From positions 96,001-160,000 of the forward strand of contig OY969561.1 in NCBI GenBank assembly GCA_963701085.1: a stretch of 64,000 nucleotides of DNA, read 5' to 3'. How positions within the stretch are numbered: position 1 is the first letter of the stretch; every line of letters starts with the position of its first letter. The position numbers and the translations under genes were made by a program. Shown here piece by piece: positions 712 through 61,852 of the stretch. The DNA comes from an uncultured bacterium. Lineage in GTDB: Bacteria > Babelota > Babeliae > Babelales > Vermiphilaceae. The notes beneath the pieces were generated by a model. It was not told the DNA's origin, did no database searches, and was given only the letters and a program-made list of their open reading frames with translations.

Positions 712-2079
712 ATGCATGATGGATATTTAAAAGTTGAACAATCTCCAGCACTCAAAGGTGAAGTCAGACTTACTGGAGCAAAGAATGCAGTTTTAGTTAC
801 CATTGCATCATTGATTTTAACAACGGGTAAATCATTATTGTACAATGTTCCTATTTCAGCTGATGTTTTTGAGATGATAGAGTTACTGCGCCATTTTGGT
901 GCAGTTATTTTTTTTGATGAAGAAAAGCATCAATTATTTGTGGATACAACATTACTGCATTCATGGAGCGTGAGTAGCGCGATGATGAAAAAAACGCGCA
1001 CGTCAATTTTAGTCATGGGGCCACTTTTGGCGCGTTTTGGTAAAGTACGTATTGGTGGACTTCCTGGTGGTGATGCTATTGGCAAACGTCCTATTGATTA
1101 TCATTTGAAAAATTTTGCAAAGATGGGTGTTGTTATTCATCACGAAGGTGATTATCTGTGCGCTGATGTTGAAAAGTTAGTAGCTGCCCGAATAGTGTTG
1201 GAATATCCGAGTGTGGGGGCAACAGAAAATATCATTATGGCAGCAACACGTGCCCAAGGGGCGACGAAAATTATAAATGCCGCGTGTGAACCCGAAGTTT
1301 TCAATTTGATTGCATGCCTGACAAAAATGGGGGCAAAAATAATTATTGAAGCTCCTGCCACTATTACCATTGAAGGTGTTGATATTTTGAACCCCATTGA
1401 ACACACCATTATGTTTGATCGTCTTGAAGCGGGATCATTGCTGATTGCTGCTGCTGCAACGGGGGGAGAAATTTATATTCCCGATGCATCGGCTGATGTA
1501 TTAGATGTATTTTTGCTCAAGCTTGAAGAAATGGGACATGCAATTACAATTGGTCCAAATAATAAGGGGATTTATCTTAAATCCACTCAGACACCGCATG
1601 CGGTGTCTTTTAAAACTGGACCATATCCAGGGTTTCCGACTGATTTGCAACCTCCCATGATGGCATTGCAATGCTTTGCATCAGGAACGAGTGTTATTGA
1701 AGAGACAGTATTTGAAAATCGTTTTCATCATGCACATGAGCTTATCAAAATGGGTGCATCAATTAAAATTGAACATAATAAAGTAATAGTCACCGGTGTT
1801 GAAAAATTATATGGTGCGCATGTTGTTGCAGCTGATATTCGCGCATCAACGGCGTTGGTTGTTGCTGGGTTGGTTGCGCATGGCACAACAATAGTTTCTG
1901 GTCTTCATCACTGGAAGCGTGGTTATGAAGCGTTAGAAAAAAAACTCCAGCATCTTGGCGCTAAAGTTGCGGTTCATGAAGGTGAAGATATGAGCGCTTT
2001 AATCCTTCAACAAGTTCCCGACTTCGCCAAGGCTTCGACGGGCACGCAGGATGAGCGCGGAAAGCAAACAGATTTATAA
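712..2079 (+). CDS. murA: UDP-N-acetylglucosamine 1-carboxyvinyltransferase, Asp115 type; C-terminal tail is repeat-derived
   Basis: GAKNA, LPGGDAIGKRPID, YPSVGATEN, PYPGFPTDLQ and DIRA motifs; GGAG precedes ATG 712. Confidence 0.95.
   Translation: MHDGYLKVEQSPALKGEVRLTGAKNAVLVTIASLILTTGKSLLYNVPISADVFEMIELLRHFGAVIFFDEEKHQLFVDTTLLHSWSVSSAMMKKTRTSILVMGPLLARFGKVRIGGLPGGDAIGKRPIDYHLKNFAKMGVVIHHEGDYLCADVEKLVAARIVLEYPSVGATENIIMAATRAQGATKIINAACEPEVFNLIACLTKMGAKIIIEAPATITIEGVDILNPIEHTIMFDRLEAGSLLIAAAATGGEIYIPDASADVLDVFLLKLEEMGHAITIGPNNKGIYLKSTQTPHAVSFKTGPYPGFPTDLQPPMMALQCFASGTSVIEETVFENRFHHAHELIKMGASIKIEHNKVIVTGVEKLYGAHVVAADIRASTALVVAGLVAHGTTIVSGLHHWKRGYEALEKKLQHLGAKVAVHEGEDMSALILQQVPDFAKASTGTQDERGKQTDL
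1992..2060 (+). repeat. Type B palindromic half-element with a 30-bp type A element (2017-2046) nested inside, in frame in the murA tail
   Basis: ATCCTTCAACAAGTT[CCCGACTTCGCCAAGGCTTCGACGGGCACG]CAGGATGAGCGCGG; compare the uninterrupted arm at 47827. Confidence 0.9.
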
Positions 2080-2095
2080 AGCCTAATATATGTTT

Positions 2096-2947
2096 TTAAA
2101 AATTACCCGCTAATTCAGTAATTTCAGTCGTAATTTTTGCTTGACGTATTTTGTTGTATTCTAACTTGGTGGTGTTCAACAAACTATTTGCGTTGCGCGT
2201 TGAATTATCCATGGAGATAAAGCGAGCGGCATGTTCAGAAAGCAGTGATTGGAAAATGAGGTGCTGAAATTGAGCCTCGATATACTGCACCGCGAGCGTG
2301 TTTAAGATCTCGCTTGGCGCTTCATCCCAGATATATCCTTCTGTTGGAGGTATGGTTGCTGCAGATATTGTTGCCGGATTGAATGGAATAAGATGGGTTA
2401 CGGTTGCCTTTTGGGTAAAAAAATTTTTAAAAACATTGCTGATGATAGTGACTGATGTATAGGCAGGTGTTGCCAGCATAACAAGATCAGTCAATTCTTG
2501 AGCGATTGTTAAAAAATTACGGGCAGTGAGCACGGGAAAAGAACAGATTAATCTATCAGGATAGTTGTTGATTAAATAATCAATTGGTTTTTTCCCGATA
2601 GCGCTAAAATGATAATGGGCTGATGGGTTTTGTTTTAAATATTCTTGTAAAAATTTTGAGAGCTGTGTATTAAAACCGCCACATAAACCTTTTTGTGATC
2701 CAATAACAACAATGAGAGGGTTACTGTTTTCACCGGTTGGCATAAGCCGCTCATGTGACCATGATGGAGTTGCTAGCTGTACCTTGGCAAGTAATGTTTT
2801 GAGCGCATTCAGGTATTCGCTGAGTGGCTCTTGTTTTATTTTAAGCCGTGAGTGAGCTGACATAGAAATAATACGCATCACATCAGTGACTTTTTTTATT
2901 GTTTCAATGGTTTGAATGCGATTGCGCATTTGAATGAGTTTGGACAT
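2096..2947 (-). CDS. atpG: F1 ATP synthase subunit gamma (stand-alone)
   Basis: RIQTIETIKKVT, KGLCGGFN, SEHAARFISMDNSTRNA, YNKIRQAKITTEITE. Confidence 0.93.
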   Translation of the reverse strand: MSKLIQMRNRIQTIETIKKVTDVMRIISMSAHSRLKIKQEPLSEYLNALKTLLAKVQLATPSWSHERLMPTGENSNPLIVVIGSQKGLCGGFNTQLSKFLQEYLKQNPSAHYHFSAIGKKPIDYLINNYPDRLICSFPVLTARNFLTIAQELTDLVMLATPAYTSVTIISNVFKNFFTQKATVTHLIPFNPATISAATIPPTEGYIWDEAPSEILNTLAVQYIEAQFQHLIFQSLLSEHAARFISMDNSTRNANSLLNTTKLEYNKIRQAKITTEITELAGNF

Positions 2948-3115
2948 GTTACCCCATGGCTGCTTGTGATAAAGCGATTGTATTAAACTTACTGTACCTG
3001 TACTTTAAGCATTTTTCAATGGTAATTATTTTGGCTTTATTGAAACAATGTTGTGTTAATTGATATACTTGCGATGTAGGGTAATAGGGTAGAAAAGTCT
3101 TAATTACGGATAAGT

Positions 3116-3706
3116 ATGATTATTGTTGTGGATGCGTACAACCTTTTACGTTCCGTGCCGCCGTATAAAAAGACCATTACGGACAAAGAGCGGGTGCAAT
3201 TTATTGCGCAGCTGGGTGCGTATGGCCGTCGCAAGGGTCACAAAATGATCATTGTTTTTGATGGTGGTCCTCATGAGTGGCCATTTAAAGAAAACATGAA
3301 AGCAATGACCATTGTCTATTCTGGCATCCATGATAGCGCAGATGATTATATTAAAGAGTATGTGGAAGCTCATCGTGCAAAGGATCTTTTACTTGTATCA
3401 TCTGATGCTGAATTGAATCGCTGGGCAGCGCGGCACAATATTCCCTCCATTGATTCATCAGGCTTTCATCATTTGTTGCATCAAGAGTTGTTGGCAAAGC
3501 AACCGATTGCTGAAAAAATTTCTGAAGTTACAAAATTGCATCGTGATAATGATGCAATAGATATTGACGCTCTCATGACGGAGGCGAGTAAAAGTGTACC
3601 AATAAAGAGCGAAGATTTAGCTCCGGTGAATAAAAGTCGTGATGCAAAAAAGGCTCAGGTTAGTAAAGGTGAGCGTGAATTATTAAAAAAGTTAAACAAA
3701 TTATAG
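3116..3706 (+). CDS. NYN-domain (YacP/Rae1-like) ribonuclease
   Basis: VDAYNL, IVFDG, SADDYI, VSSD motifs. Confidence 0.8.
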   Translation: MIIVVDAYNLLRSVPPYKKTITDKERVQFIAQLGAYGRRKGHKMIIVFDGGPHEWPFKENMKAMTIVYSGIHDSADDYIKEYVEAHRAKDLLLVSSDAELNRWAARHNIPSIDSSGFHHLLHQELLAKQPIAEKISEVTKLHRDNDAIDIDALMTEASKSVPIKSEDLAPVNKSRDAKKAQVSKGERELLKKLNKL

Positions 3707-3716
3707 AGCTATTCAT

Positions 3717-4193
3717 ATGAAGAACCATAACAAAGAGATTGTTTATTCATTAGATGAGCATGATAAGGTTATTCAAGAATTGAAAAATGCAATGGCAAGG
3801 TGTCAGGTCTTTGCCTTGAGCGGTCCTCTTGGTGCGGGAAAAACAACGACCATTAAAGCATTGCTACGTAGTTGCGGGGTGACTGGTACTATTACTAGTC
3901 CAACATTTACGTATGTTAATGAGTACGAAAACAGTCAAGGTGAGCATTTTTATCATTTTGATTTATATCGGATAGGTAGTGTGCAAGAGTTTCAGGCGCA
4001 GGGATTTGATGAATATTTGTATCAACCTGCCTTTCGTAGTTCGCAGAACGAAGTAGGGCCAAATAGTTGGGCATTTATCGAGTGGCCGGAGGTTATTGAG
4101 CCGCTTTTAACGCACAATGTCTGCTTTGTTTCATTTGATTATCACGATGACCCTGATAAACGGGTAGTTATCATAAAAGAGAGTGAATTTTAA
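3717..4193 (+). CDS. tsaE: tRNA t6A biosynthesis ATPase TsaE with an 11-aa repeat-derived insertion
   Basis: GPLGAGKTT, TSPTFT, HFDLYR, IEWPE. Confidence 0.95.
   Translation: MKNHNKEIVYSLDEHDKVIQELKNAMARCQVFALSGPLGAGKTTTIKALLRSCGVTGTITSPTFTYVNEYENSQGEHFYHFDLYRIGSVQEFQAQGFDEYLYQPAFRSSQNEVGPNSWAFIEWPEVIEPLLTHNVCFVSFDYHDDPDKRVVIIKESEF
4026..4058 (-). repeat. Type A element, 33 bp, in frame in tsaE
   Basis: Minus strand CCCTACTTCGTTCTGCGAACTACGAAAGGCAGG; encodes PAFRSSQNEVG. Confidence 0.8.
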
Positions 4194-4293
4194 AGATTTT
4201 TATCAAATAATGTGTTTTTCATCAAAATTAAGTTGAAATACATTGAGAAAAACAATATTATAGTTGAACAAGCTTGTAGATGTGCTTGGGTGC

Positions 4294-4378
4294 GGCGAGG
4301 TTCCCGAGCGGCCAAAGGGGGTGGACTGTAAATCCATCGGCTATGCCTTCGCTGGTTCGAATCCAGCCCTCGCCACCA
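4294..4378 (+). tRNA. tRNA-Tyr(GTA)
   Basis: Cloverleaf, anticodon loop CTGTAAA, long variable arm, GGTTCGAATCC, CCA. Confidence 0.97.
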
Positions 4379-4405
4379 GACTACGCTAAAGCTTCGTCTG
4401 GCAGG
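4376..4405 (+). repeat. Type A element starting at the tRNA-Tyr CCA
   Basis: CCAGAC-TAC-GCT-AA-AGC-TTC-GTCTGG-CAGG. Confidence 0.88.
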
Positions 4406-4481
4406 CCATCTTTTTAAAGGTTGGTTAGAATTATCAAAAAAACTTGGTAATTTAAAAAGATTAAGAAAACAATTGAAATGT

Positions 4482-4557
4482 GCGGGAATAGCTCAATTGG
4501 CAGAGCGACAGCCTTCCAAGCTGTAGGTTGCGAGTTCGACCCTCGTTTCCCGCTCCA
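4482..4557 (+). tRNA. tRNA-Gly(TCC)
   Basis: GCGGGAA acceptor stem, loop CTTCCAA, CCA. Confidence 0.97.
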
Positions 4558-4570
4558 GAAAAGTTATAAG

Positions 4571-4646
4571 GCCGGCGTAGCTCAGTTGGTAGAGCAGCTG
4601 ATTTGTAATCAGCAGGTCACTGGTTCGAATCCTGTCGCCGGCTCCA
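4571..4646 (+). tRNA. tRNA-Thr(TGT)
   Basis: GCCGGCG acceptor stem, loop TTTGTAA, CCA. Confidence 0.97.
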
Positions 4647-4674
4647 TACTTCGCACAAGGCTCCGTATGGCAGG
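4644..4674 (+). repeat. Type A element starting at the tRNA-Thr CCA
   Basis: CCATACTTCGCACAAGGCTCCGTATGGCAGG. Confidence 0.88.
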
Positions 4675-4733
4675 CCATTTTTTTCAAAGGTTTGACATTA
4701 AGACTTTTTGAAAAGATTGATAGCAGAAGCGAA

Positions 4734-4764
4734 GTATGCCCTTCGAAGCTTTAGCGTAGTAGGG
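4734..4764 (-). repeat. Type A element, inverted relative to the tRNA-adjacent copies
   Basis: Minus strand CCCTACTACGCTAAAGCTTCGAAGGGCATAC. Confidence 0.85.
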
Positions 4765-4869
4765 CTATCCTTATCTTTCTGATTTCTAATACACAATAGG
4801 TGTTCAAAAAGTTTGTCTTTTTCTGTTTTTTTAATTAATCTATAATAAACCGTAAGGATTACGGTTCAT

Positions 4870-4944
4870 GCCCACGTAGCTCAGAGGCAGAGCGCTTCCT
4901 TGGTAAGGAAGAGGCCACCGGTTCAATCCCGGTCGCGGGCTCCA
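4870..4944 (+). tRNA. tRNA-Thr(GGT)
   Basis: Loop TTGGTAA, GGTTCAATCCC, CCA; A5-C68 mismatch in acceptor stem. Confidence 0.94.
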
Positions 4945-4989
4945 GATAGAATCAGTTGAAATCAAGGTCTTATAAGTGTCTTTATAATT

Positions 4990-5148
4990 ATGGCAAAAAA
5001 TAGAAAAACTACTCATTTGGTTTGCGAAATATGCAAAGAACGTAACTATACTCAGGTTGTTTCAAAAAAAAGAACTATCGGTTCTTTAAAATTGAGTAAG
5101 TATTGTCCACGCTGTCGCAAGCACAATGATCATAAAGAAACAAAATAG
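4990..5148 (+). CDS. rpmG: 50S ribosomal protein L33, Zn-ribbon type, 52 aa (absent from ORF track)
   Basis: Manual translation [52 protein letters not shown]. Confidence 0.95.
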
Positions 5149-5157
5149 GCCCTTTGT

Positions 5158-5234
5158 AGGTCAGTAGCTCAATTTGGTAGAGCAGCAGACTCCAAATCTG
5201 CCGGTTGGGGGTTCGAGTCCCTCCTGGCCTGCCA
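5158..5234 (+). tRNA. tRNA-Trp(CCA)
   Basis: Loop CTCCAAA, GGTTCGAGTCC, CCA; canonical position between rpmG and secE. Confidence 0.97.
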
Positions 5235-5252
5235 TTAGAAAGAAGAGAGATA

Positions 5253-5453
5253 ATGATAAAAGATGTAACGCAGTTTGTTAAAGACGTGCAACTTGAGCTT
5301 TCAAAAGTTACTTGGCCTAAGTTTGATGAGTTTGTAGGATCAACGATAGTTGTCTTACTACTCATGTCTTTTTTTGCAGTTTATTTAGGTCTCGTTGATA
5401 AAGGGCTTACTGAGCTCTGGCGATTTGTAGTTAGATTGTATGGTGGTTACTAG
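5253..5453 (+). CDS. secE: Preprotein translocase subunit SecE
   Basis: ELSKVTWP plus one TM helix; start set at ATG 5253, after the tRNA. Confidence 0.93.
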   Translation: MIKDVTQFVKDVQLELSKVTWPKFDEFVGSTIVVLLLMSFFAVYLGLVDKGLTELWRFVVRLYGGY

Positions 5454-5474
5454 TTTTGACAGGACAAAGATCAT

Positions 5475-5993
5475 ATGAAGCGCTGGTATGTTGTACAAGT
5501 ATATGCAGGTTATGAGCAGGCAGCTAAGCTAGACATTGAGAAACGAATACAAGCAGAAGGAATGCAAGATTACTTTGGTGAAATTCTTGTGCCATCTGCT
5601 AAATCAAAACCAATGTTTGCAACAGATGACAGTGCTGATCAGCAACTTTTTCCTGGTTACATCTTAGCCGAAATAGAAATGACTCCCGAGTCACTTCGTG
5701 TTGTAACCGCAAGCATTCGTGTCTTGAGATTTTTGGGGGGCAAAAATCCTGAGCCAATATCACAAAAAGAGATCGATCGTATTATTTCCCAAGTTAAAGG
5801 GGAAGTTGCGGTTGAAACTACGCGAGAAGAGTATTCACTTGGCAGTGAGGTAGATATAGTTGAGGGTCCGTTTGCTGGATTTGTCGGTATTATTGATAGC
5901 GTAGATTATAATAACGAAAAATTAACAGTTATGGTTAGTATTTTTGGCAGAATGACCCCGGTTGAACTTGGCTTTCATCAAATTAAGCGATAA
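5475..5993 (+). CDS. nusG: Transcription elongation factor NusG
   Basis: WYVVQVYAGYE, LFPGYIL, GPFAGF, IFGRMTPVEL. Confidence 0.97.
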   Translation: MKRWYVVQVYAGYEQAAKLDIEKRIQAEGMQDYFGEILVPSAKSKPMFATDDSADQQLFPGYILAEIEMTPESLRVVTASIRVLRFLGGKNPEPISQKEIDRIISQVKGEVAVETTREEYSLGSEVDIVEGPFAGFVGIIDSVDYNNEKLTVMVSIFGRMTPVELGFHQIKR

Positions 5994-6013
5994 TCAGTGA
6001 GGTAATTGTCTCT

Positions 6014-6439
6014 ATGGCAAAAATAGTTAAAGCAAAAATTAAGCTTCAGATTCAAGGTGCGAGCGCGACTCCGGCTCCTCCTGTGGGATCGTCACTTGGT
6101 CAACACCAAGTCAATATTATGGAGTTCTGTAAGGCATTTAATGCTCAAACATCTGGTCGCAAAGGCGAAACTGTGCCGGTAGAAATTACTGTATACACTG
6201 ATCGTACATTTGAGTTCAGGGTAAAAACTTCGCCAACTACCGAGCTTATTAAAAAGCGAATTAGTCTTACAAAAGGTTCGCCTCGTCCTCATGAAATTAA
6301 AGTTGGAAAAATTTCATGGAAGGATATTGAAGAAATCGCAAAAATTAAAATGCCAGATTTGACTGCAGTTGATATGGATCAGGCAAAAAAAATTGTCGCT
6401 GGCAGTGCGCGAAGTATTGGAATTGACGTTGTTGATTGA
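6014..6439 (+). CDS. rplK: 50S ribosomal protein L11
   Basis: ATPAPPVGSSLGQ, NIMEFCKAFN. Confidence 0.97.
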   Translation: MAKIVKAKIKLQIQGASATPAPPVGSSLGQHQVNIMEFCKAFNAQTSGRKGETVPVEITVYTDRTFEFRVKTSPTTELIKKRISLTKGSPRPHEIKVGKISWKDIEEIAKIKMPDLTAVDMDQAKKIVAGSARSIGIDVVD

Positions 6440-6453
6440 GCTAGGAAAATATA

Positions 6454-7152
6454 ATGGCTAAGCATGGAAAAAAATATCACGCAGCGGTATCGAAGAAGCC
6501 TAGTAATGATCTTGGTGTAGATGTAGCATTTCAACAAGTTAAAGATCTTTCTTTTGCCAAATTTGATGAGTCCATTGATGTGGCTATCAACTTGGGTATA
6601 GATCCAGCTAAGGGTGAGCAAACAGTTCGAGGTTCTGTTGTTTTGCCTCATAGCAAAGGAAAAGAGAAAGTCATTATTGTTTTTGCAAAAGGTGAATTTG
6701 CTGATGCAGCAAAAAAAGCGGGAGCTGATTTTGTGGGCATGGAAGACCTTATTGAAAAAATACAAGGTGGCTGGCTTGATTTTGATTATGCAGTAGCAAC
6801 ACCAGATGTTATGGGTGCGGTTGGTGTGCTTGCAAGAGTTTTGGGTCCTCGTGGATTGTTGCCAAACAAAAAAGTAGGCACAGTTACGTTCGATGTAGAA
6901 GCAATTGTTACTGATTTAAAAAAAGGCCGTGCTTTCTTCAGAAATGATAAGCAGGGTATTGTTCATTTTTCAATAGGTAAAGTTTCATTTGATGTTAAAA
7001 AGCTTCATGATAATTTAGATGCTTTAGTTAAGGCAGTTGTGGGATCAAAACCGGCGACCGCTAAAGGCAAGTATCTGAAAAAAATGACCGTGTCCTCAAC
7101 AATGGGCATTGGTATTGCGATTAACTCTGACGAATTTGTGCGTTCCTTATAG
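6454..7152 (+). CDS. rplA: 50S ribosomal protein L1
   Basis: AKFDESID, LGPRGLLPN, SSTMG. Confidence 0.97.
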   Translation: MAKHGKKYHAAVSKKPSNDLGVDVAFQQVKDLSFAKFDESIDVAINLGIDPAKGEQTVRGSVVLPHSKGKEKVIIVFAKGEFADAAKKAGADFVGMEDLIEKIQGGWLDFDYAVATPDVMGAVGVLARVLGPRGLLPNKKVGTVTFDVEAIVTDLKKGRAFFRNDKQGIVHFSIGKVSFDVKKLHDNLDALVKAVVGSKPATAKGKYLKKMTVSSTMGIGIAINSDEFVRSL

Positions 7153-7166
7153 GTAAAGAGGTTTCA

Positions 7167-7694
7167 ATGAATCGACAACAAAAAGAATCGGTTGTTGAGT
7201 TATTTCATAAAGATTTTTTGGCAAATAAGGGCACCTTTTTTGTTAATTATTCCGGATTAACTGTTGGTCAAATGCAACAATTAAGAAGGCAATTGCGTGA
7301 AAAAGGCGGCGCGCTTAAAATTGCAAAGATGCGGCTTGTTAAACGAGCACTTGCAAGTGTTAAGGGTGCTGATGGGCTTCTTTCTCATTGTAAAAATCAG
7401 TTAGGTGTTGTTTTTGCGTATGACTCAGCAGAAGTATCTGGTATAGCAAAAGCTCTTAATGATTTTTCAAAAAAGAATGAATCACTTGGCCTTGTTGTTG
7501 GTTGCGTGGATGCACAGCTTTTGGATAAGACAGCAATCACTCGTATTGCATCTCTTCCATCAAAAGAAGTACTGCTTGCTCAGCTATGTGGTACGCTGAA
7601 TGCTCCATTGACCTCGCTTGTGTTTGGACTTAACTCTATGATTGTGAAGCTATTGGTTGCTTTAAAAGAAGTCGAAAAGCAAAAGCAAGCGTAG
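7167..7694 (+). CDS. rplJ: 50S ribosomal protein L10
   Basis: YSGLTV..LRRQL, LPSKEVLLAQL; synteny. Confidence 0.95.
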   Translation: MNRQQKESVVELFHKDFLANKGTFFVNYSGLTVGQMQQLRRQLREKGGALKIAKMRLVKRALASVKGADGLLSHCKNQLGVVFAYDSAEVSGIAKALNDFSKKNESLGLVVGCVDAQLLDKTAITRIASLPSKEVLLAQLCGTLNAPLTSLVFGLNSMIVKLLVALKEVEKQKQA

Positions 7695-7763
7695 TGATAA
7701 GTTTGTCTCATATAATAGATGATAGTAGTTGTTTATAGTACTTTTTAATGTTTAGGGATTGCA

Positions 7764-8150
7764 ATGGCAGCAAAATCTTACGAAAAATTCATTGACGAAA
7801 TAGGTAATATGACGGTTCTTGAGCTTGCTGATCTTGTTAAAGCTCTTGAATCAAAATTCGGTATCTCAGCAGCTATGCCAATGGCATCAGCAGCTCCAGC
7901 GGCATCAGCAGATGCAGCTCCAGTAGCAGCAGAAAAGAGCGAATATAAAGTATCTCTTACTGATGCAGGATCTGAAAAAATTAAGGTGATTAAAGCATTG
8001 CGCGAAGTTATTCCTAATCTAGCGCTTTCTGATGCTAAGAAATTAACAGAAGAAACACCAGCTGTCATCGCTGAATCAGTATCAAAAGCTGACGCAGAAA
8101 AGATGAAAAAGAAACTTGAAGAAGCTGGCGCAAAAGTAGAGCTTGCATAA
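7764..8150 (+). CDS. rplL: 50S ribosomal protein L7/L12
   Basis: KFGISAA, KIKVIKALRE, LEEAGAKVEL. Confidence 0.97.
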   Translation: MAAKSYEKFIDEIGNMTVLELADLVKALESKFGISAAMPMASAAPAASADAAPVAAEKSEYKVSLTDAGSEKIKVIKALREVIPNLALSDAKKLTEETPAVIAESVSKADAEKMKKKLEEAGAKVELA

Positions 8151-8172
8151 CGTTGTTATGCGGGCTTTTTTT
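8141..8172 (+). terminator. Intrinsic terminator/attenuator between rplL and rpoB
   Basis: GCTTGCATAAC-GTT-GTTATGCGGGC followed by T7. Confidence 0.7.
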
Positions 8173-8175
8173 GTT

Positions 8176-8246
8176 CCCCATCTTCAGTTTTCCGACTTCG
8201 TTAAAACTTTGTCGGACAGGCATTTCGATGGGGACCCCAATTGGAG
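8176..8246 (+). repeat. Type F element with a nested 30-bp type A element (8191-8220)
   Basis: CCCCATCTTCAGTTT[TCCGACTTCGTTAAAACTTTGTCGGACAGG]CATTTCGATGGGGACCCC; empty copy at 28500-28540. Confidence 0.88.
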
Positions 8247-8386
8247 TCATTTAATTTTTCATAAAAGTTACCCAACGGTAACAAGGTGAAAATTAAGTTA
8301 AAAGATTGGGGTAAAATGATTTTTTGGTGTAGTGGGGGATGGAATTTGATTGGCCACATGTTTGGCGTTAGTAAGGAGTGGTCTAA

Positions 8387-54964: not shown

Positions 54965-56835
54965 TATTTTTCCCTATATGTTTTGCGAGTTCAACAGCAA
55001 CTTCTTTAATCATAGATTGCCAATCACCTGGCGTAGGTTGTTTGAATAGGCGAGTGATGTTTGGATACCATGGAGAATCATTGCGATCTATCATCCAGCG
55101 CCAATCAGCAGGGTTCGGGAGCATAATCCATGTTGGTGTGCCAAGCCCACTTGCAAGATGGCTGATTGATGTATCAACCGTGATAATAAGATCGAGATTT
55201 TTTATTACCGCAGCAGTATCCATAAAACGACCATTGCTCTGATCAAAATCACCATCAAACGTGATAATGCGCATGCCTTCTGGTAAATCCTTAAGTTGAT
55301 CGGTGCCGGTTGTTTTTTGCAGGCTGTAAACAGTTACGCCGGGAACGTTGCAAATAGGTGCAAACTCTTTTGGATGTACTGATTTTTGGGCAACGGTTGC
55401 GCGTAATAATGGTGTTGCATAGTTATCATTTCCTTGCCAACAGATGCCAATTTTAAAGTTTTTATCCGCGGATAATTTTTGTTTCCAATCAGCTACTAAT
55501 TTTTCATCAGCATAAAGGTATGGAATTTCACAGGGAACAGTATCAAGGCGTGTTTTCAGAACATACGGTAATGATAACAATGGTGAATGAACATCAAAGT
55601 GTGGGGGGGTGTCATCGAGTGAAATCACTTGATCGATATGTTTGCAACGTTTCATGAGGGTGACGAGTGGTTTTTGTACTGCAGCAATAACAATGCCATT
55701 TTTTTCTTTGATCAATTTCGCGTAACGAATAAATTGAAACGTATCGCCAAGCCCTTGTTCTGCGTGAATTAAAATTGTTTTGCCTTGTAAATCTGATCCA
55801 TCCCAGCGTGGTTCAGAGTAGCTGCGCAATGATCCTTGAGAAGGGCGGTCTGTAGCGCCATTCATATCCATGCCATCCGCGTTCAAAATCGCCGATTACA
55901 AGATACGCAAGGCCGCGACTAAAGAGTGCCTCTGCATGGTTGGGATTAAGCTCGAGTACTTTATTATAGTAAGGGAGTGCTTGATCCAAGTAACCAAATT
56001 TTTTGTAAGTGAATGCAATGTTGTATAAAATTGATGGATTGTTTGGTAGTTGACGGTTAAGATCTTGGTATATTGCGAGTGATTCATCAAGTCTGTTGAC
56101 GGTGTTATAAACATTAGCAAGTTCAAAGGTTAAGTTGATATGGCCTGGTTCAAGGGTAAGCCCATCAGTAATAATATTAAGTGCTTGATTAAAAAGATGT
56201 TTATCATTGTAAACGCGTGCAAGTAATAGACGCGTGTCAGGGTCATTGGGGTTAAGAATGAGTGCTTGTTTAAATGGTTCAATTGCATCGCCTGCTTGTT
56301 TGACATCCGTCATTACTTTGCCAATTTGAATGTATGCACGATAGTGATCTTTTTTATGCTGAATTGTTTTTTTATACGCATATAACGCCTCAGAATATTT
56401 TTTTGCATAATAGAGTGCTTGACCAAGATTGAAAAATATCTGTGCGCAGGTGGGATTTAATGCAAGTGCTTGTTTGTAAAATGCAATTGCTTCATCATAC
56501 TGTTCTGCGGTAAAAAGGCCATTTGCATGTTTGCTGAGTGCTTCAAAAGATTGGTAGTCGATATATGAGTGTGGTTGTGGTTTTTTGAGATAATTTTCTA
56601 TTGCGGTAAACGTAACTTGTTTGTTTGCATTGCAAAGGGATGTAGTGAGTAGTAGAAGGATTACCCTTCGATACATTCTCCTGTGGAGAACACTCAGGGC
56701 GAGCGGGAAGAGAAATATATTATTCTTAAGGATTGCGGTAAATTCTAGCCCGCTCGTCCTGAGTGCCACCGTAGGTGGTGTATCGAAGGATGGTGCGGAA
56801 GAAAAACGTAGAATAGTTTGTTTAGTTGTATTCAT
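54951..56835 (-). CDS. TPR-repeat plus GT9-like glycosyltransferase with an apparent +1 insertion near 55851
   Basis: Removing one base from TGG CGC TAC A GAC CGC joins GYEWRY to DRPSQGSL..WDGSDLQGK; EQGLGDTFQF. Confidence 0.85.
56663..56791. repeat. Inverted pair of type C elements (56663-56707 plus, 56749-56791 minus) in the 5' coding region
   Basis: Inner hairpins TTCTCC/GGAGAA and CCACC/GGTGG. Confidence 0.88.
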
Positions 56836-56837
56836 AA

Positions 56838-56895
56838 AAAACTCCTTTTTTGTGCGCTTCTATTTCTGCTTTGTTATACACAAAAAAGGAGTTTT
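56838..56895. promoter_or_regulatory. Perfect 17-bp inverted repeat covering the RBS of the TPR-GT gene
   Basis: AAAACTCCTTTTTTGTG-N24-CACAAAAAAGGAGTTTT. Confidence 0.6.
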
Positions 56896-56965
56896 AATCA
56901 ATTTGATTAATAGTCTTTACCCATTTGCCCATTTGTGGTATGATGTGTTATAAGAGGTACCAATT

Positions 56966-57526: not shown

Positions 57527-57633
57527 AATTTGATTACAAAACACGATCAAAGAAAAATCAAAACAATTGGCTAAAAAAAAGTGTTGTATAGTACTTGCAA
57601 GTACTATACAACACTTTTTTTAATAAAATCAAT

Positions 57634-58743: not shown

Positions 58744-58809
58744 GATTTTTTGCCTTATTTAAAAAAAGTGCTGCGCACTTTTCATCGTATTAAGCTTGTA
58801 TGTGTTTCC

Positions 58810-58954
58810 CGCGCTCGCCCTGACCCTTCGGCAAGCTCAGGAGTAAACACCTGCCTTGAGAACTTGCAGTGCCTGCCGAAGCCTTGGCGAAGGCAGGTTG
58901 AAGGGTTTCTTAGAGCGCTCGAAGAGATCCTTCAACAGGTTCAGGACGAGCGCG
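58810..58954. repeat. Full type B element with nested type D (58824-58848) and an inverted type A-containing insert (58854-58897)
   Basis: CCCTGA[CCCTTCGGCAAGCTCAGGAGTAAAC]ACCTG[..GTGCCTGCCGAAGCCTTGGCGAAGGCAGG]TTGAAGGG. Confidence 0.9.
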
Positions 58955-58981
58955 AAAAGGCAAGAATGATCGGGTTGTCTA

Positions 58982-61582: not shown

Positions 61583-61813
61583 ATGATAAAAGAATTGGTC
61601 ACTTTTGTAGTGCAGCAATTGGTTTCGCATCCACAAGACGTTGTCGTGAGTGTTACTGAAAAAGATGATATAAATCTTTTTGAAATCAAAGTATCACCAG
61701 AAGACCGAGGACGTGTTATTGGAAAAGAAGGGCATACAATTAAATCATTGCGTGCTTTGATTGATGTAGCATCACCTTATGGAAAAAAAGTTTCACTTGA
61801 ACTGTCTCGGTAA
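61583..61813 (+). CDS. khpA: KH-domain RNA-binding protein
   Basis: DRGRVIGKEGHTIKSLR; follows rpsP. Confidence 0.9.
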   Translation: MIKELVTFVVQQLVSHPQDVVVSVTEKDDINLFEIKVSPEDRGRVIGKEGHTIKSLRALIDVASPYGKKVSLELSR

Positions 61814-61852
61814 TCCTTCGATACACCCCTACGGGGCACTCAGGATGAGCGC
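61813..61852 (+). repeat. Type C element filling the khpA-trmD gap
   Basis: ATCCTTCGATACA-CCCCTACGGGG-CACTCAGGATGAGCGC. Confidence 0.9.

What the first reader, a model, noticed from the sequence alone, without database searches (positions are those of the whole stretch)
2017..56791. Palindromic elements add in-frame peptides to core and accessory proteins
Seen: tsaE gains PAFRSSQNEVG (33 bp, 4026-4058) between YLYQ and PNSW. The pcrA linker holds PSFAEASAGR (30 bp) and ARPECPGRGVSKG. The MurA tail ILQQVPDFAKASTGTQDERG is element-derived. The TPR-GT gene at 54964 reads through a 132-bp triple composite whose two nested inserts total 57 bp. The TPR-GT gene at 56835 reads through two C elements. 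Established: Rickettsia RPEs create coding insertions this way. Inference: an unrelated repeat family does the same here, filtered by selection for frame and for loops or termini.
Basis: partly seen in the sequence, partly recalled or inferred. Interest (0 to 1): 0.78.

Follow-up and report, generated by a model that had tools for sequence, protein, structure and literature searches.

The report
In-frame hairpin repeats in Dependentiae genes
Small GC-rich hairpin-forming DNA repeats that litter this intracellular bacterium's genome have also landed, in frame, inside dozens of working genes and add short peptides to loops, linkers and ends of essential proteins, much as the known palindromic elements of Rickettsia do.

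Summary
Three are solid in-frame additions. TsaE carries a clean 33-bp insert that is absent from all 18 aligned orthologues. The MurA C-terminal tail is element-coded. The PcrA linker holds two element peptides.

The two TPR-glycosyltransferase cases are real open frames, but their coding status is open. Both sit in the N-terminal signal or anchor region and have internal ATGs. One of the two genes also has a +1 frameshift downstream.

The genome is a 1.2-Mb Candidatus Dependentiae genome. It holds three related families: 143 A, 93 B and 82 C hits, forming 251 loci. Of these, 129 loci lie in the 10.5% of the genome that is intergenic. Another 68 lie inside 56 ORFs of at least 150 aa, and 36 of those ORFs have Pfam domains (CysS, PheT, RecD2, Ddl, DprA and others).

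Frames of the elements that contain stop codons are never used. Long units sit in linkers and termini, and only the 30-nt B hairpin sits inside domains.

The core of a variant of the A repeat occurs in metagenome contigs whose flanks range from 30 to 78% GC. None of four transposase families searched was found.

This is an RPE-like phenomenon caused by a different repeat family. This scan has already noted it in other Dependentiae genomes (e1-3991278, e1-2073188, e1-2823411). My searches found no paper on it.

The parts
4026..4058 (+). 33-nt B-like hairpin insert in tsaE (CDS 3717-4193). It encodes PAFRSSQNEVG.
   Evidence: Its ends match B-family copies, but it did not appear among the nhmmer B hits at E<0.01. 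The model puts it in a low-confidence loop.
1995..2061 (+). Single A-type hairpin unit, with a B hairpin nested at 2017-2044, that forms the C-terminal tail of MurA (CDS 691-2079).
48167..48194 (-). B hairpin in the PcrA linker, read as PSFAEASAGR.
   Evidence: Contigs of runs X2 and X4 span it with 0-2 differences.
48081..48121 (-). C element in the PcrA linker, read as ARPECPGRGVSKG.
54794..54922 (-). 129-nt composite (outer A-type arms, a short inner unit and a B hairpin at 54851-54878). It lies in frame after codon 12-14 of TPR-GT9 gene 53486-54964.
56750..56791 (-). First C element after the conserved SD and ATG (56835) of the second TPR-GT9 gene.
56663..56706 (-). Second C element, in opposite polarity. 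It contains the internal ATG (MYRRV) that directly precedes the signal-peptide-like stretch.
55845..55855 (-). Approximate place of the +1 base that splits the second TPR-GT9 gene into ORFs 55813-56835 and 54951-55886.
   Evidence: A contig of run X3 over 55747-56061 is one base shorter, but where the missing base lies was not shown.
50269..50428 (.). Intergenic A-A inverted dimer (50269-50344) plus a C element (50385-50428), upstream of pcrA.
58805..58955 (.). Intergenic composite of the same build as the one in the TPR-GT gene.
28582..28614 (.). Intergenic A half-unit. Further intergenic copies lie at 37696-37728, 44706-44773, 47836-47864 and 61813-61851 (C).
4376..4403 (.). B-like hairpin next to the 3' end of tRNA-Tyr. 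Similar hairpins lie at 4644-4672 (tRNA-Thr), 4737-4764 and 16931-16959 (tRNA-Val).

Best explanation
The window comes from a 1.2-Mb, 37% GC genome of Candidatus Dependentiae (TM6). The genome is colonised by three related families of small GC-rich repeats that form imperfect hairpins.

- A is a unit of about 34 nt, usually present as an inverted dimer of about 75-80 nt.
- B is a hairpin of about 30 nt.
- C is a unit of about 45 nt with its own inner hairpin.
- Composites of these units also spread as units.

Copies insert all over the genome. Most survivors lie between genes. Inside genes only those copies persist that keep the reading frame, carry no stop codon in the frame that is read, and fall in a loop, an interdomain linker or a protein end. 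Such copies are then transcribed and translated with the gene and add 9 to about 45 residues.

Shown here: the insertions, their absence from orthologues, their identity with intergenic copies, and the position and frame patterns. Inferred: that they are translated, that selection does the filtering, and how they move. The mobilising enzyme is unknown.
For: Families and copy numbers. The top 14-mers occur 83 times. nhmmer found 143 A, 93 B and 82 C hits, forming 251 loci. The A pattern has 108 matches against 0 for the reversed control, and occurs in 9 of 10 same-genus genomes.

Clean lineage-specific insertions:
- TsaE gains 33 nt, absent in 18 of 18 orthologues.
- RecD2 gains about 34 aa (an A-A dimer), absent in 10 of 10 same-genus orthologues.
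- CysS gains about 12 aa, absent in 10 of 10. G002 has a separate insert nearby.
- PheT gains 9 aa, absent in 8 of 9. G005 has a B insert three codons away.
- MurA has its tail replaced; 4 of 4 relatives differ.
- In the PcrA linker, FAKAS-like peptides lie at the same spot in 3 clear and 2 degenerate of 10 same-genus orthologues, and in 0 of 15 outside the genus.

Census. The crude ORF set covers 89.4% of the genome.
- 129 of 251 loci are intergenic.
- 68 lie in 56 ORFs of at least 150 aa.
- 30 lie in shorter ORFs.
- 24 lie at gene edges.
- 36 of the 56 ORFs have a Pfam match at E<=1e-5.
- At least 17 loci in 14 genes have domain matches on both sides or lie inside a domain envelope.

Frames. 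A frame 'rev 2' is closed in 87 of 87 intergenic copies and used by 0 of 37 genic copies. C frame 'rev 1' is open in only 2 of 48 intergenic copies and used by 0 of 13 genic copies.

TsaE model. Mean pLDDT is 90.1. The insert lies in a coil between helix 97-100 and strand 117-122, with pLDDT under 50 at residues 110-112.
Against: - There is no RNA or peptide evidence. No RNA run was listed, so translation is inferred only from intact frames.
- Single copies fold no better than shuffles, with z-scores from +0.44 to -1.53 in 8 of 8 tested stretches. 'Palindromic' therefore means imperfect.
- About 21 of the 68 genic loci lie within the first 70 codons of a longest-ORF call, and could be 5' leaders swallowed by the ORF caller.
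- Some element-bearing genes are broken: the second TPR-GT has a +1 frameshift, and iPGM is cut by an in-frame TGA in a C-C pair.
- No target-site duplication was evident at the 4 insertion sites inspected.
- No Y1_Tnp, OrfB_IS605, DDE_Tnp_1 or rve match was found in the genome. Active transposition is therefore not shown.
Confidence: 0.85

Rival explanations
1. For the two TPR-GT9 genes only: the elements lie in the 5' leader, not in the protein. Translation would start at the internal ATGs (MEYQK... in gene 53486-54964, MYRRV... in gene 55813-56835), and the long ORFs through the elements stay open simply because GC-rich repeats have few stop codons.
For: In G006 both orthologues start directly with a short signal-peptide-like N-terminus. 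That N-terminus aligns with G000 only from about residue 71 (first gene) and residue 50 (second gene). In the second gene the internal ATG sits right before ILLLLTTSLCNA. A G010 paralogue likewise has MYRRV before its hydrophobic stretch. Most element frames are stop-free by composition.
Against: The Shine-Dalgarno and ATG context at 56835 is conserved with G006. The first gene keeps an MKK start like G006's. The purine run before the internal ATG of the second gene ends 1 nt from it, which is too close by the usual spacing rule (the spacing rule is my own knowledge). Starting the first gene at MEYQK would remove the N-terminal hydrophobic segment that its relatives have.
Confidence: 0.35
2. 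The element-bearing genes are decaying pseudogenes of a reduced genome, so the in-frame state means nothing.
For: The second TPR-GT gene is frameshifted. iPGM is interrupted by a stop codon. TilS, MutL, FtsK and one Ddl copy look truncated next to elements.
Against: TsaE, PcrA, MurA, CysS, PheT and RecD2 are full-length open frames with complete domain sets and 65-88% identity to same-genus orthologues. These are core genes in a genome scored 92.6% complete.
Confidence: 0.08
3. The peptides are native low-complexity protein segments, or arose by slippage, and the DNA similarity to the intergenic repeats is coincidental.
For: G010 PcrA carries tandem SSFAKAS units that look like slippage after insertion.
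Against: The same DNA units occur in intergenic DNA in both orientations. The peptides are absent from orthologues. One DNA unit is read in several frames in different genes.
Confidence: 0.03
4. The inserts are assembly artefacts: repeat-induced mis-joins in a metagenome-assembled genome.
For: The genome is probably assembled from a metagenome. Only fragmentary contigs of public runs match it, with a word share of at most 0.25.
Against: Contigs of runs X2 (151 nt, 2 differences) and X4 (219 nt, 0 differences) run through both PcrA elements into unique sequence, though either run may be the source sample. The inserts keep the frame exactly. Related genomes carry comparable inserts at other sites.
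Confidence: 0.03

Closest known systems
Rickettsia palindromic elements (RPE). Source: the passage read in review PMC10969869, which cites Ogata et al. I did not read the primary papers.
   Same: Both are dispersed palindromic repeats in an obligate intracellular bacterium with a small genome. In both, many copies sit in frame inside unrelated housekeeping genes and are thought to be compatible with the protein fold.
   Different: RPEs are about 150 bp and are reported from Rickettsia. The units here are about 30, 34-80 and 45 nt, nest into composites, and belong to another phylum. The core of a variant of the A repeat also occurs in metagenome contigs with flanks of 30-78% GC. Sequence relatedness to RPEs was not tested.
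REP / REPIN elements mobilised by RAYT (Y1) transposases. The family features are from my own knowledge and from earlier scan notes.
   Same: Both are short imperfect palindromes in high copy number. Both are mostly extragenic and often occur as inverted doublets, like the A-A dimers here.
   Different: No Y1_Tnp match was found in this genome, while the control genomes gave matches. A quarter of the loci are inside long ORFs.
MITEs that make in-frame fusions with host ORFs (intragenic ERIC, BOX, QMITE1 of Coxiella, as listed in PMC10969869).
   Same: Both are non-autonomous small repeats that can be read through as part of a host ORF.
   Different: No terminal inverted repeat plus target-site duplication signature was seen at the 4 sites inspected. 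No DDE, rve or IS605 OrfB transposase was found.

Membership tests
RPE-like coding palindromic elements (functional class) | A dispersed repeat family, with copies both between genes and inside genes. | tested here: met
   There are 251 loci: 129 intergenic and 68 in ORFs of at least 150 aa.
RPE-like coding palindromic elements (functional class) | Genic copies keep the host reading frame, and orthologues lack them. | tested here: met
   Shown for TsaE, RecD2, CysS, PheT and MurA.
RPE-like coding palindromic elements (functional class) | The element is retained in mRNA and protein. | not testable with these tools
   No RNA run was listed, and there are no proteomic data.
Rickettsia RPE families proper | Sequence similarity to the described RPE families. 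| not tested
   I had no RPE sequence at hand. The Rfam gathering-score scan of the window gave only 6 tRNAs.
REP/REPIN-RAYT | Short imperfect palindromes, mainly extragenic, often in inverted doublets. | tested here: met
REP/REPIN-RAYT | A cognate RAYT (Y1 transposase, PF01797) encoded in the genome. | tested here: not met
   0 matches in G000, against matches in 6 of 14 control genomes.
MITE | Target-site duplication at insertion sites. | tested here: inconclusive
   None was evident at 4 sites. TsaE has at most a 2-nt CC ambiguity.
MITE | A related autonomous element or transposase in the genome. | tested here: not met
   No PF01609, PF00665, PF01385 or PF01797 match was found. Only these four families were searched.

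The most novel reading that the evidence does not exclude
The 30-nt B hairpin is not merely tolerated in proteins. It is kept preferentially in one polarity and frame (the P-S-F-A-K-A-S reading). That points to selection on the encoded peptide or on the mRNA, and so to a selfish hairpin repeat that serves as a ready-made flexible loop or linker module. The repeat belongs to a pan-bacterial group with no known mobilising enzyme, and it drives length variation at the same permissive loops in sister species (PheT, CysS, PcrA).
Probability: 0.3. Interest if true: 0.65.

Novelty: new member of a known kind. Interest (0 to 1): 0.5.

Why it matters
The result extends the 'selfish DNA inside protein-coding genes' picture from Rickettsia to another phylum of obligate intracellular bacteria, with much smaller units.

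At least 14 Pfam-supported genes carry internal copies, among them tRNA synthetases, cell-wall ligases and replication and repair helicases. Sister species carry different inserts in the same loops, which gives natural insertion-tolerance maps of essential enzymes.

The elements also matter for annotation. These GC-rich repeats extend ORFs, create spurious small ORFs and blur start codons in Dependentiae genomes.

The apparent lack of any recognisable transposase, together with the occurrence of the core across very different GC backgrounds, leaves open how such hairpins spread.

Tried and rejected
- A fuzzy-regex scan for the TsaE element timed out. I replaced it with blastn-short.
- In the first TsaE alignment, 9 of 20 loci were read on the wrong strand, so only 10 relatives were informative. 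I redid it with the correct strands.
- The look-up of earlier notes by place and by sequence returned nothing for this genome.
- Public runs: no RNA holder was listed and all holders were fragmentary contigs. Laying X1-X4 gave only short pieces. They bridge the PcrA elements, but they cannot settle the frameshift or any presence/absence polymorphism.
- I tried to replicate the B-frame bias in 5 relatives. Of 29 sampled exact-core copies, 8 lay in long ORFs. Only 2 of those 8 were in the FAKAS frame; 3 were in the mirror EALAKE frame. The bias was not replicated, and the sample is small and limited to exact-core copies.
- The idea that C elements commonly donate a MYRRV start codon failed. Only 1 of 43 such ATGs in G000 is followed by an ORF of at least 60 codons.
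- Single-copy folding energies were not better than shuffles.
- Literature: 'Dependentiae' with 'palindromic' gave 6 papers and with 'MITE' gave 12, none on this topic judging by the listed titles. Passages on repeats in PMC4776705 and PMC4378268 concern ankyrin repeats only. Motif strings found no paper.
- I considered and rejected the idea that the composite in the TPR-GT gene arose by local nesting.
Full report
WHAT THE WINDOW IS

The window is bases 96001-160000 of a single-contig genome of 1,198,634 bp with 37% G+C. The best named relative of its TsaE is a Candidatus Dependentiae MAG at 50% identity. Same-genus genomes are held only as unnamed handles.

- TsaE: 3717-4193, + strand
- MurA: 691-2079, + strand
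- PcrA/UvrD: 47877-50216, - strand
- A TPR plus GT9 gene: 53486-54964, - strand
- A second TPR-GT9 gene, present as two overlapping ORFs: 55813-56835 and 54951-55886, - strand

THE REPEATS ARE REAL

The commonest 14-mers of the genome occur 83 times and belong to one GC-rich unit. The A half-site pattern has 108 matches at up to 2 mismatches, against 0 for the reversed control. It occurs in 9 of 10 same-genus genomes and in 4 of 30 more distant relatives.

I built profiles from seed copies and iterated them twice. They give 143 A, 93 B and 82 C hits at E<0.01.

- A is a hairpin unit of about 34 nt that mostly occurs as an inverted dimer of 75-80 nt.
- B is a hairpin of about 30 nt.
- C is about 45 nt and has its own inner hairpin.

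A and C share their outer arms. Single copies fold only modestly, with z-scores from +0.44 to -1.53 in 8 of 8 stretches tested. These are therefore imperfect palindromes.

THE FIVE SITES

1. TsaE. The 33 bases at 4026-4058 are absent from 18 of 18 aligned orthologues. At DNA level they are absent from 8 of 8 same-genus relatives that aligned; the G005 row failed to align and was dropped. The flanks are otherwise colinear, with at most a 2-nt CC ambiguity at the junction. The insert's ends match B-family copies, although it did not appear among the nhmmer B hits at E<0.01. An AlphaFold2 model built from that alignment has mean pLDDT 90.1. The insert is a coil between helix 97-100 and strand 117-122, and pLDDT is under 50 at residues 110-112.

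2. MurA. The Pfam match ends at residue 419. After the shared LGAxVxVHE, four of four syntenic relatives have unrelated tails of about 20 residues. G000 instead reads through a single A-type unit with a nested B hairpin, and then 6 more codons to a new stop. No stop precedes the element, so the tail must be translated if the gene is.

3. PcrA. Both peptides lie in the linker between the helicase core and the Tudor domain. I aligned 25 relatives.
- FAKAS-like peptides lie at the same spot in G004, G006 and G010.
- Degenerate versions lie there in G005 and G001.
- G002, G007, G009, G003 and G008 have none.
- None of the 15 genomes outside the genus has one.
- G010 carries four tandem SSFAKAS-type units.
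- The C peptide recurs only in G002, at another distance from the Tudor domain.

The B insert here is therefore old within the genus and has since decayed or expanded.

4. TPR-GT at 54964. The G006 orthologue begins with a short MKK... hydrophobic N-terminus that runs straight into the shared ...PSL..EYQK.. segment. G000 has an MKK start, then the element block, then 14 further residues, then the shared segment. The block is 129 nt by my boundaries. It has nearly full-length relatives at 3 other places in the genome (80-87% identity over 129-132 nt) and further partial ones. One of its relatives lies intergenically in the window at 58805-58955. It therefore arrived as a composite unit.

5. TPR-GT at 56835. 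The promoter-proximal sequence, the Shine-Dalgarno site and the ATG are conserved with G006. Two C elements in opposite polarity follow codon 13. The second contains an ATG (MYRRV) directly before the signal-peptide-like stretch. Which start is used cannot be told from sequence. Downstream the gene has one extra base relative to G006 and G010, which splits it. A 314-nt contig of run X3 over 55747-56061 is one base shorter than the window, but the place of the gap was not shown.

GENOME-WIDE PICTURE

I made a crude ORF set: longest ORFs of at least 60 aa, with greedy removal of overlaps. It has 1230 ORFs and covers 89.4% of the genome.

The 318 hits merge into 251 loci:
- 129 are intergenic.
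- 68 lie inside 56 ORFs of at least 150 aa.
- 30 lie in shorter ORFs, many of them probably spurious.
- 24 lie at gene edges.

That is about 1.0 locus per kb of intergenic DNA against about 0.11 per kb elsewhere.

Thirty-six of the 56 ORFs have a Pfam match at E<=1e-5. At least 17 loci in 14 genes have domain matches on both sides or lie within a domain envelope:
- PBP transpeptidase
- CysS
- PcrA (two loci)
- A methyltransferase
- PheT
- PEBP
- iPGM (two loci)
- DeaD/DbpA
- PfkB
- A Mur ligase
- RecD2
- Peptidase M3
- Ddl (two loci)

All copies inside domain envelopes are the short B type. A-A dimers and C units lie in linkers, N-termini or C-termini.

I checked three of these genes against all same-genus genomes:
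- The RecD2 insert is absent in 10 of 10.
- The CysS insert is absent in 10 of 10, with a separate insert nearby in G002.
- The PheT insert is absent in 8 of 9, with a B insert three codons away in G005.

About 21 of the 68 genic loci lie in the first 70 codons of a longest-ORF call and may be leaders rather than coding sequence.

FRAME AND POLARITY

The A frame and the C frame that carry stops are never used in genes: 0 of 37 and 0 of 13. Those frames are closed in 87 of 87 and 46 of 48 intergenic copies.

For B, 21 of 37 genic copies are read in one polarity and frame, the PSFAKAS reading (chi-square p = 3e-8 against a uniform distribution). This frame is open in only 21 of 36 intergenic copies, fewer than most other frames. 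Stop avoidance therefore does not explain the preference.

Polarity follows the gene, not the replichore:
- 29 copies oppose the model orientation and 8 match it, on both leading-strand and lagging-strand genes.
- Intergenic copies split 17 to 19 relative to replication.

Against this, a sample of 29 exact-core B copies from five relatives had only 8 in long ORFs, and only 2 of those were in that frame. The bias is so far a one-genome result. It may reflect long-retained, diverged copies. The copies are also not phylogenetically independent.

DISTRIBUTION AND MOBILITY

Flank G+C in the 80 loci held ranges from 30 to 78%. The hairpin core is therefore not confined to this lineage.

G000 has no match to Y1_Tnp, OrfB_IS605, DDE_Tnp_1 or rve, while the control genomes gave matches. 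No target-site duplication was evident at 4 sites. How the elements move is unknown. Only four enzyme families were searched.

COMPARISON WITH WHAT IS KNOWN

The review PMC10969869 (passage read) describes RPEs as elements of about 150 bp, in ten families, that integrated 44 times in R. conorii, nearly half of them in frame in ORFs. It suggests the same could occur in other prokaryotes.

The present case works like that, but the units are smaller, nest into composites, and occur in another phylum. Sequence relatedness to RPEs was not tested. REP/REPIN membership fails on the RAYT criterion.

This scan has already reported in-frame GC-rich hairpin repeats in other Dependentiae genomes (e1-3991278, e1-2073188, e1-2823411) and in other phyla. 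Those are unchecked AI notes, but my results agree with them.

My literature searches found nothing on the topic:
- No paper on such repeats in Dependentiae turned up.
- The passages I read in two Dependentiae genome papers mention only ankyrin repeats and one IS4 transposase.
- The motif strings I searched found no paper.

Supplements were not consulted.

VERDICT

It is open for the two TPR-GT leaders. The finding is a new member of a known kind and of moderate interest.

Noticed in passing
G000:C1:914262-915995 (outside the window): The iPGM gene is cut into two same-frame ORFs by an inverted pair of C elements that ends in an in-frame TGA. It could be a pseudogene, a split enzyme or a case of stop-codon read-through.
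   Followed up: partly
window 4376-4403, 4644-4672, 16931-16959: B-like hairpins followed by T-runs sit directly at the 3' ends of tRNA-Tyr, tRNA-Thr(tgt) and tRNA-Val. They may act as terminators or processing signals.
   Followed up: no
relative G010, syntenic to window 54700-56900 (loci L023-L024): Both TPR-GT9 paralogues of G010 are preceded by 5-7 tandem repeats of about 40 codons. Each repeat holds a C element and stays open in frame for about 170-270 codons.
   Followed up: no
window about 55850: There is a +1 base in the second TPR-GT9 gene relative to G006 and G010. A contig of run X3 across the region is one base shorter.
   Followed up: partly
G000:C1:534491-535855 (DprA) and loci L365, L366, L370: The B-coded peptide LSAEALAKEE in the C-terminal part of the DprA ORF recurs (GLSAEALAKEEG, GLPFEALAKEGG) at a similar ORF position in G009 and G010. 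Whether those ORFs are DprA was not checked. If they are, this is an old insertion kept across species.
   Followed up: no
window 57574-57621: A perfect palindrome with 29-nt overlapping arms, flanked by A and T runs, lies between convergent genes. It looks like a bidirectional terminator.
   Followed up: no
window 21355-24342 and 51085-53425: One region holds three tandem paralogous genes on the minus strand. The other holds a run of four small paralogous genes with similar signal-peptide-like starts.
   Followed up: no
G000:C1:15527-25253, 67680-72472, 249304-252369 and others (outside the window): Many large ORFs carry long repeats of GGN-ACN/GCN triplets (collagen-like G-x-T runs). They dominated the first k-mer repeat screen.
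   Followed up: no
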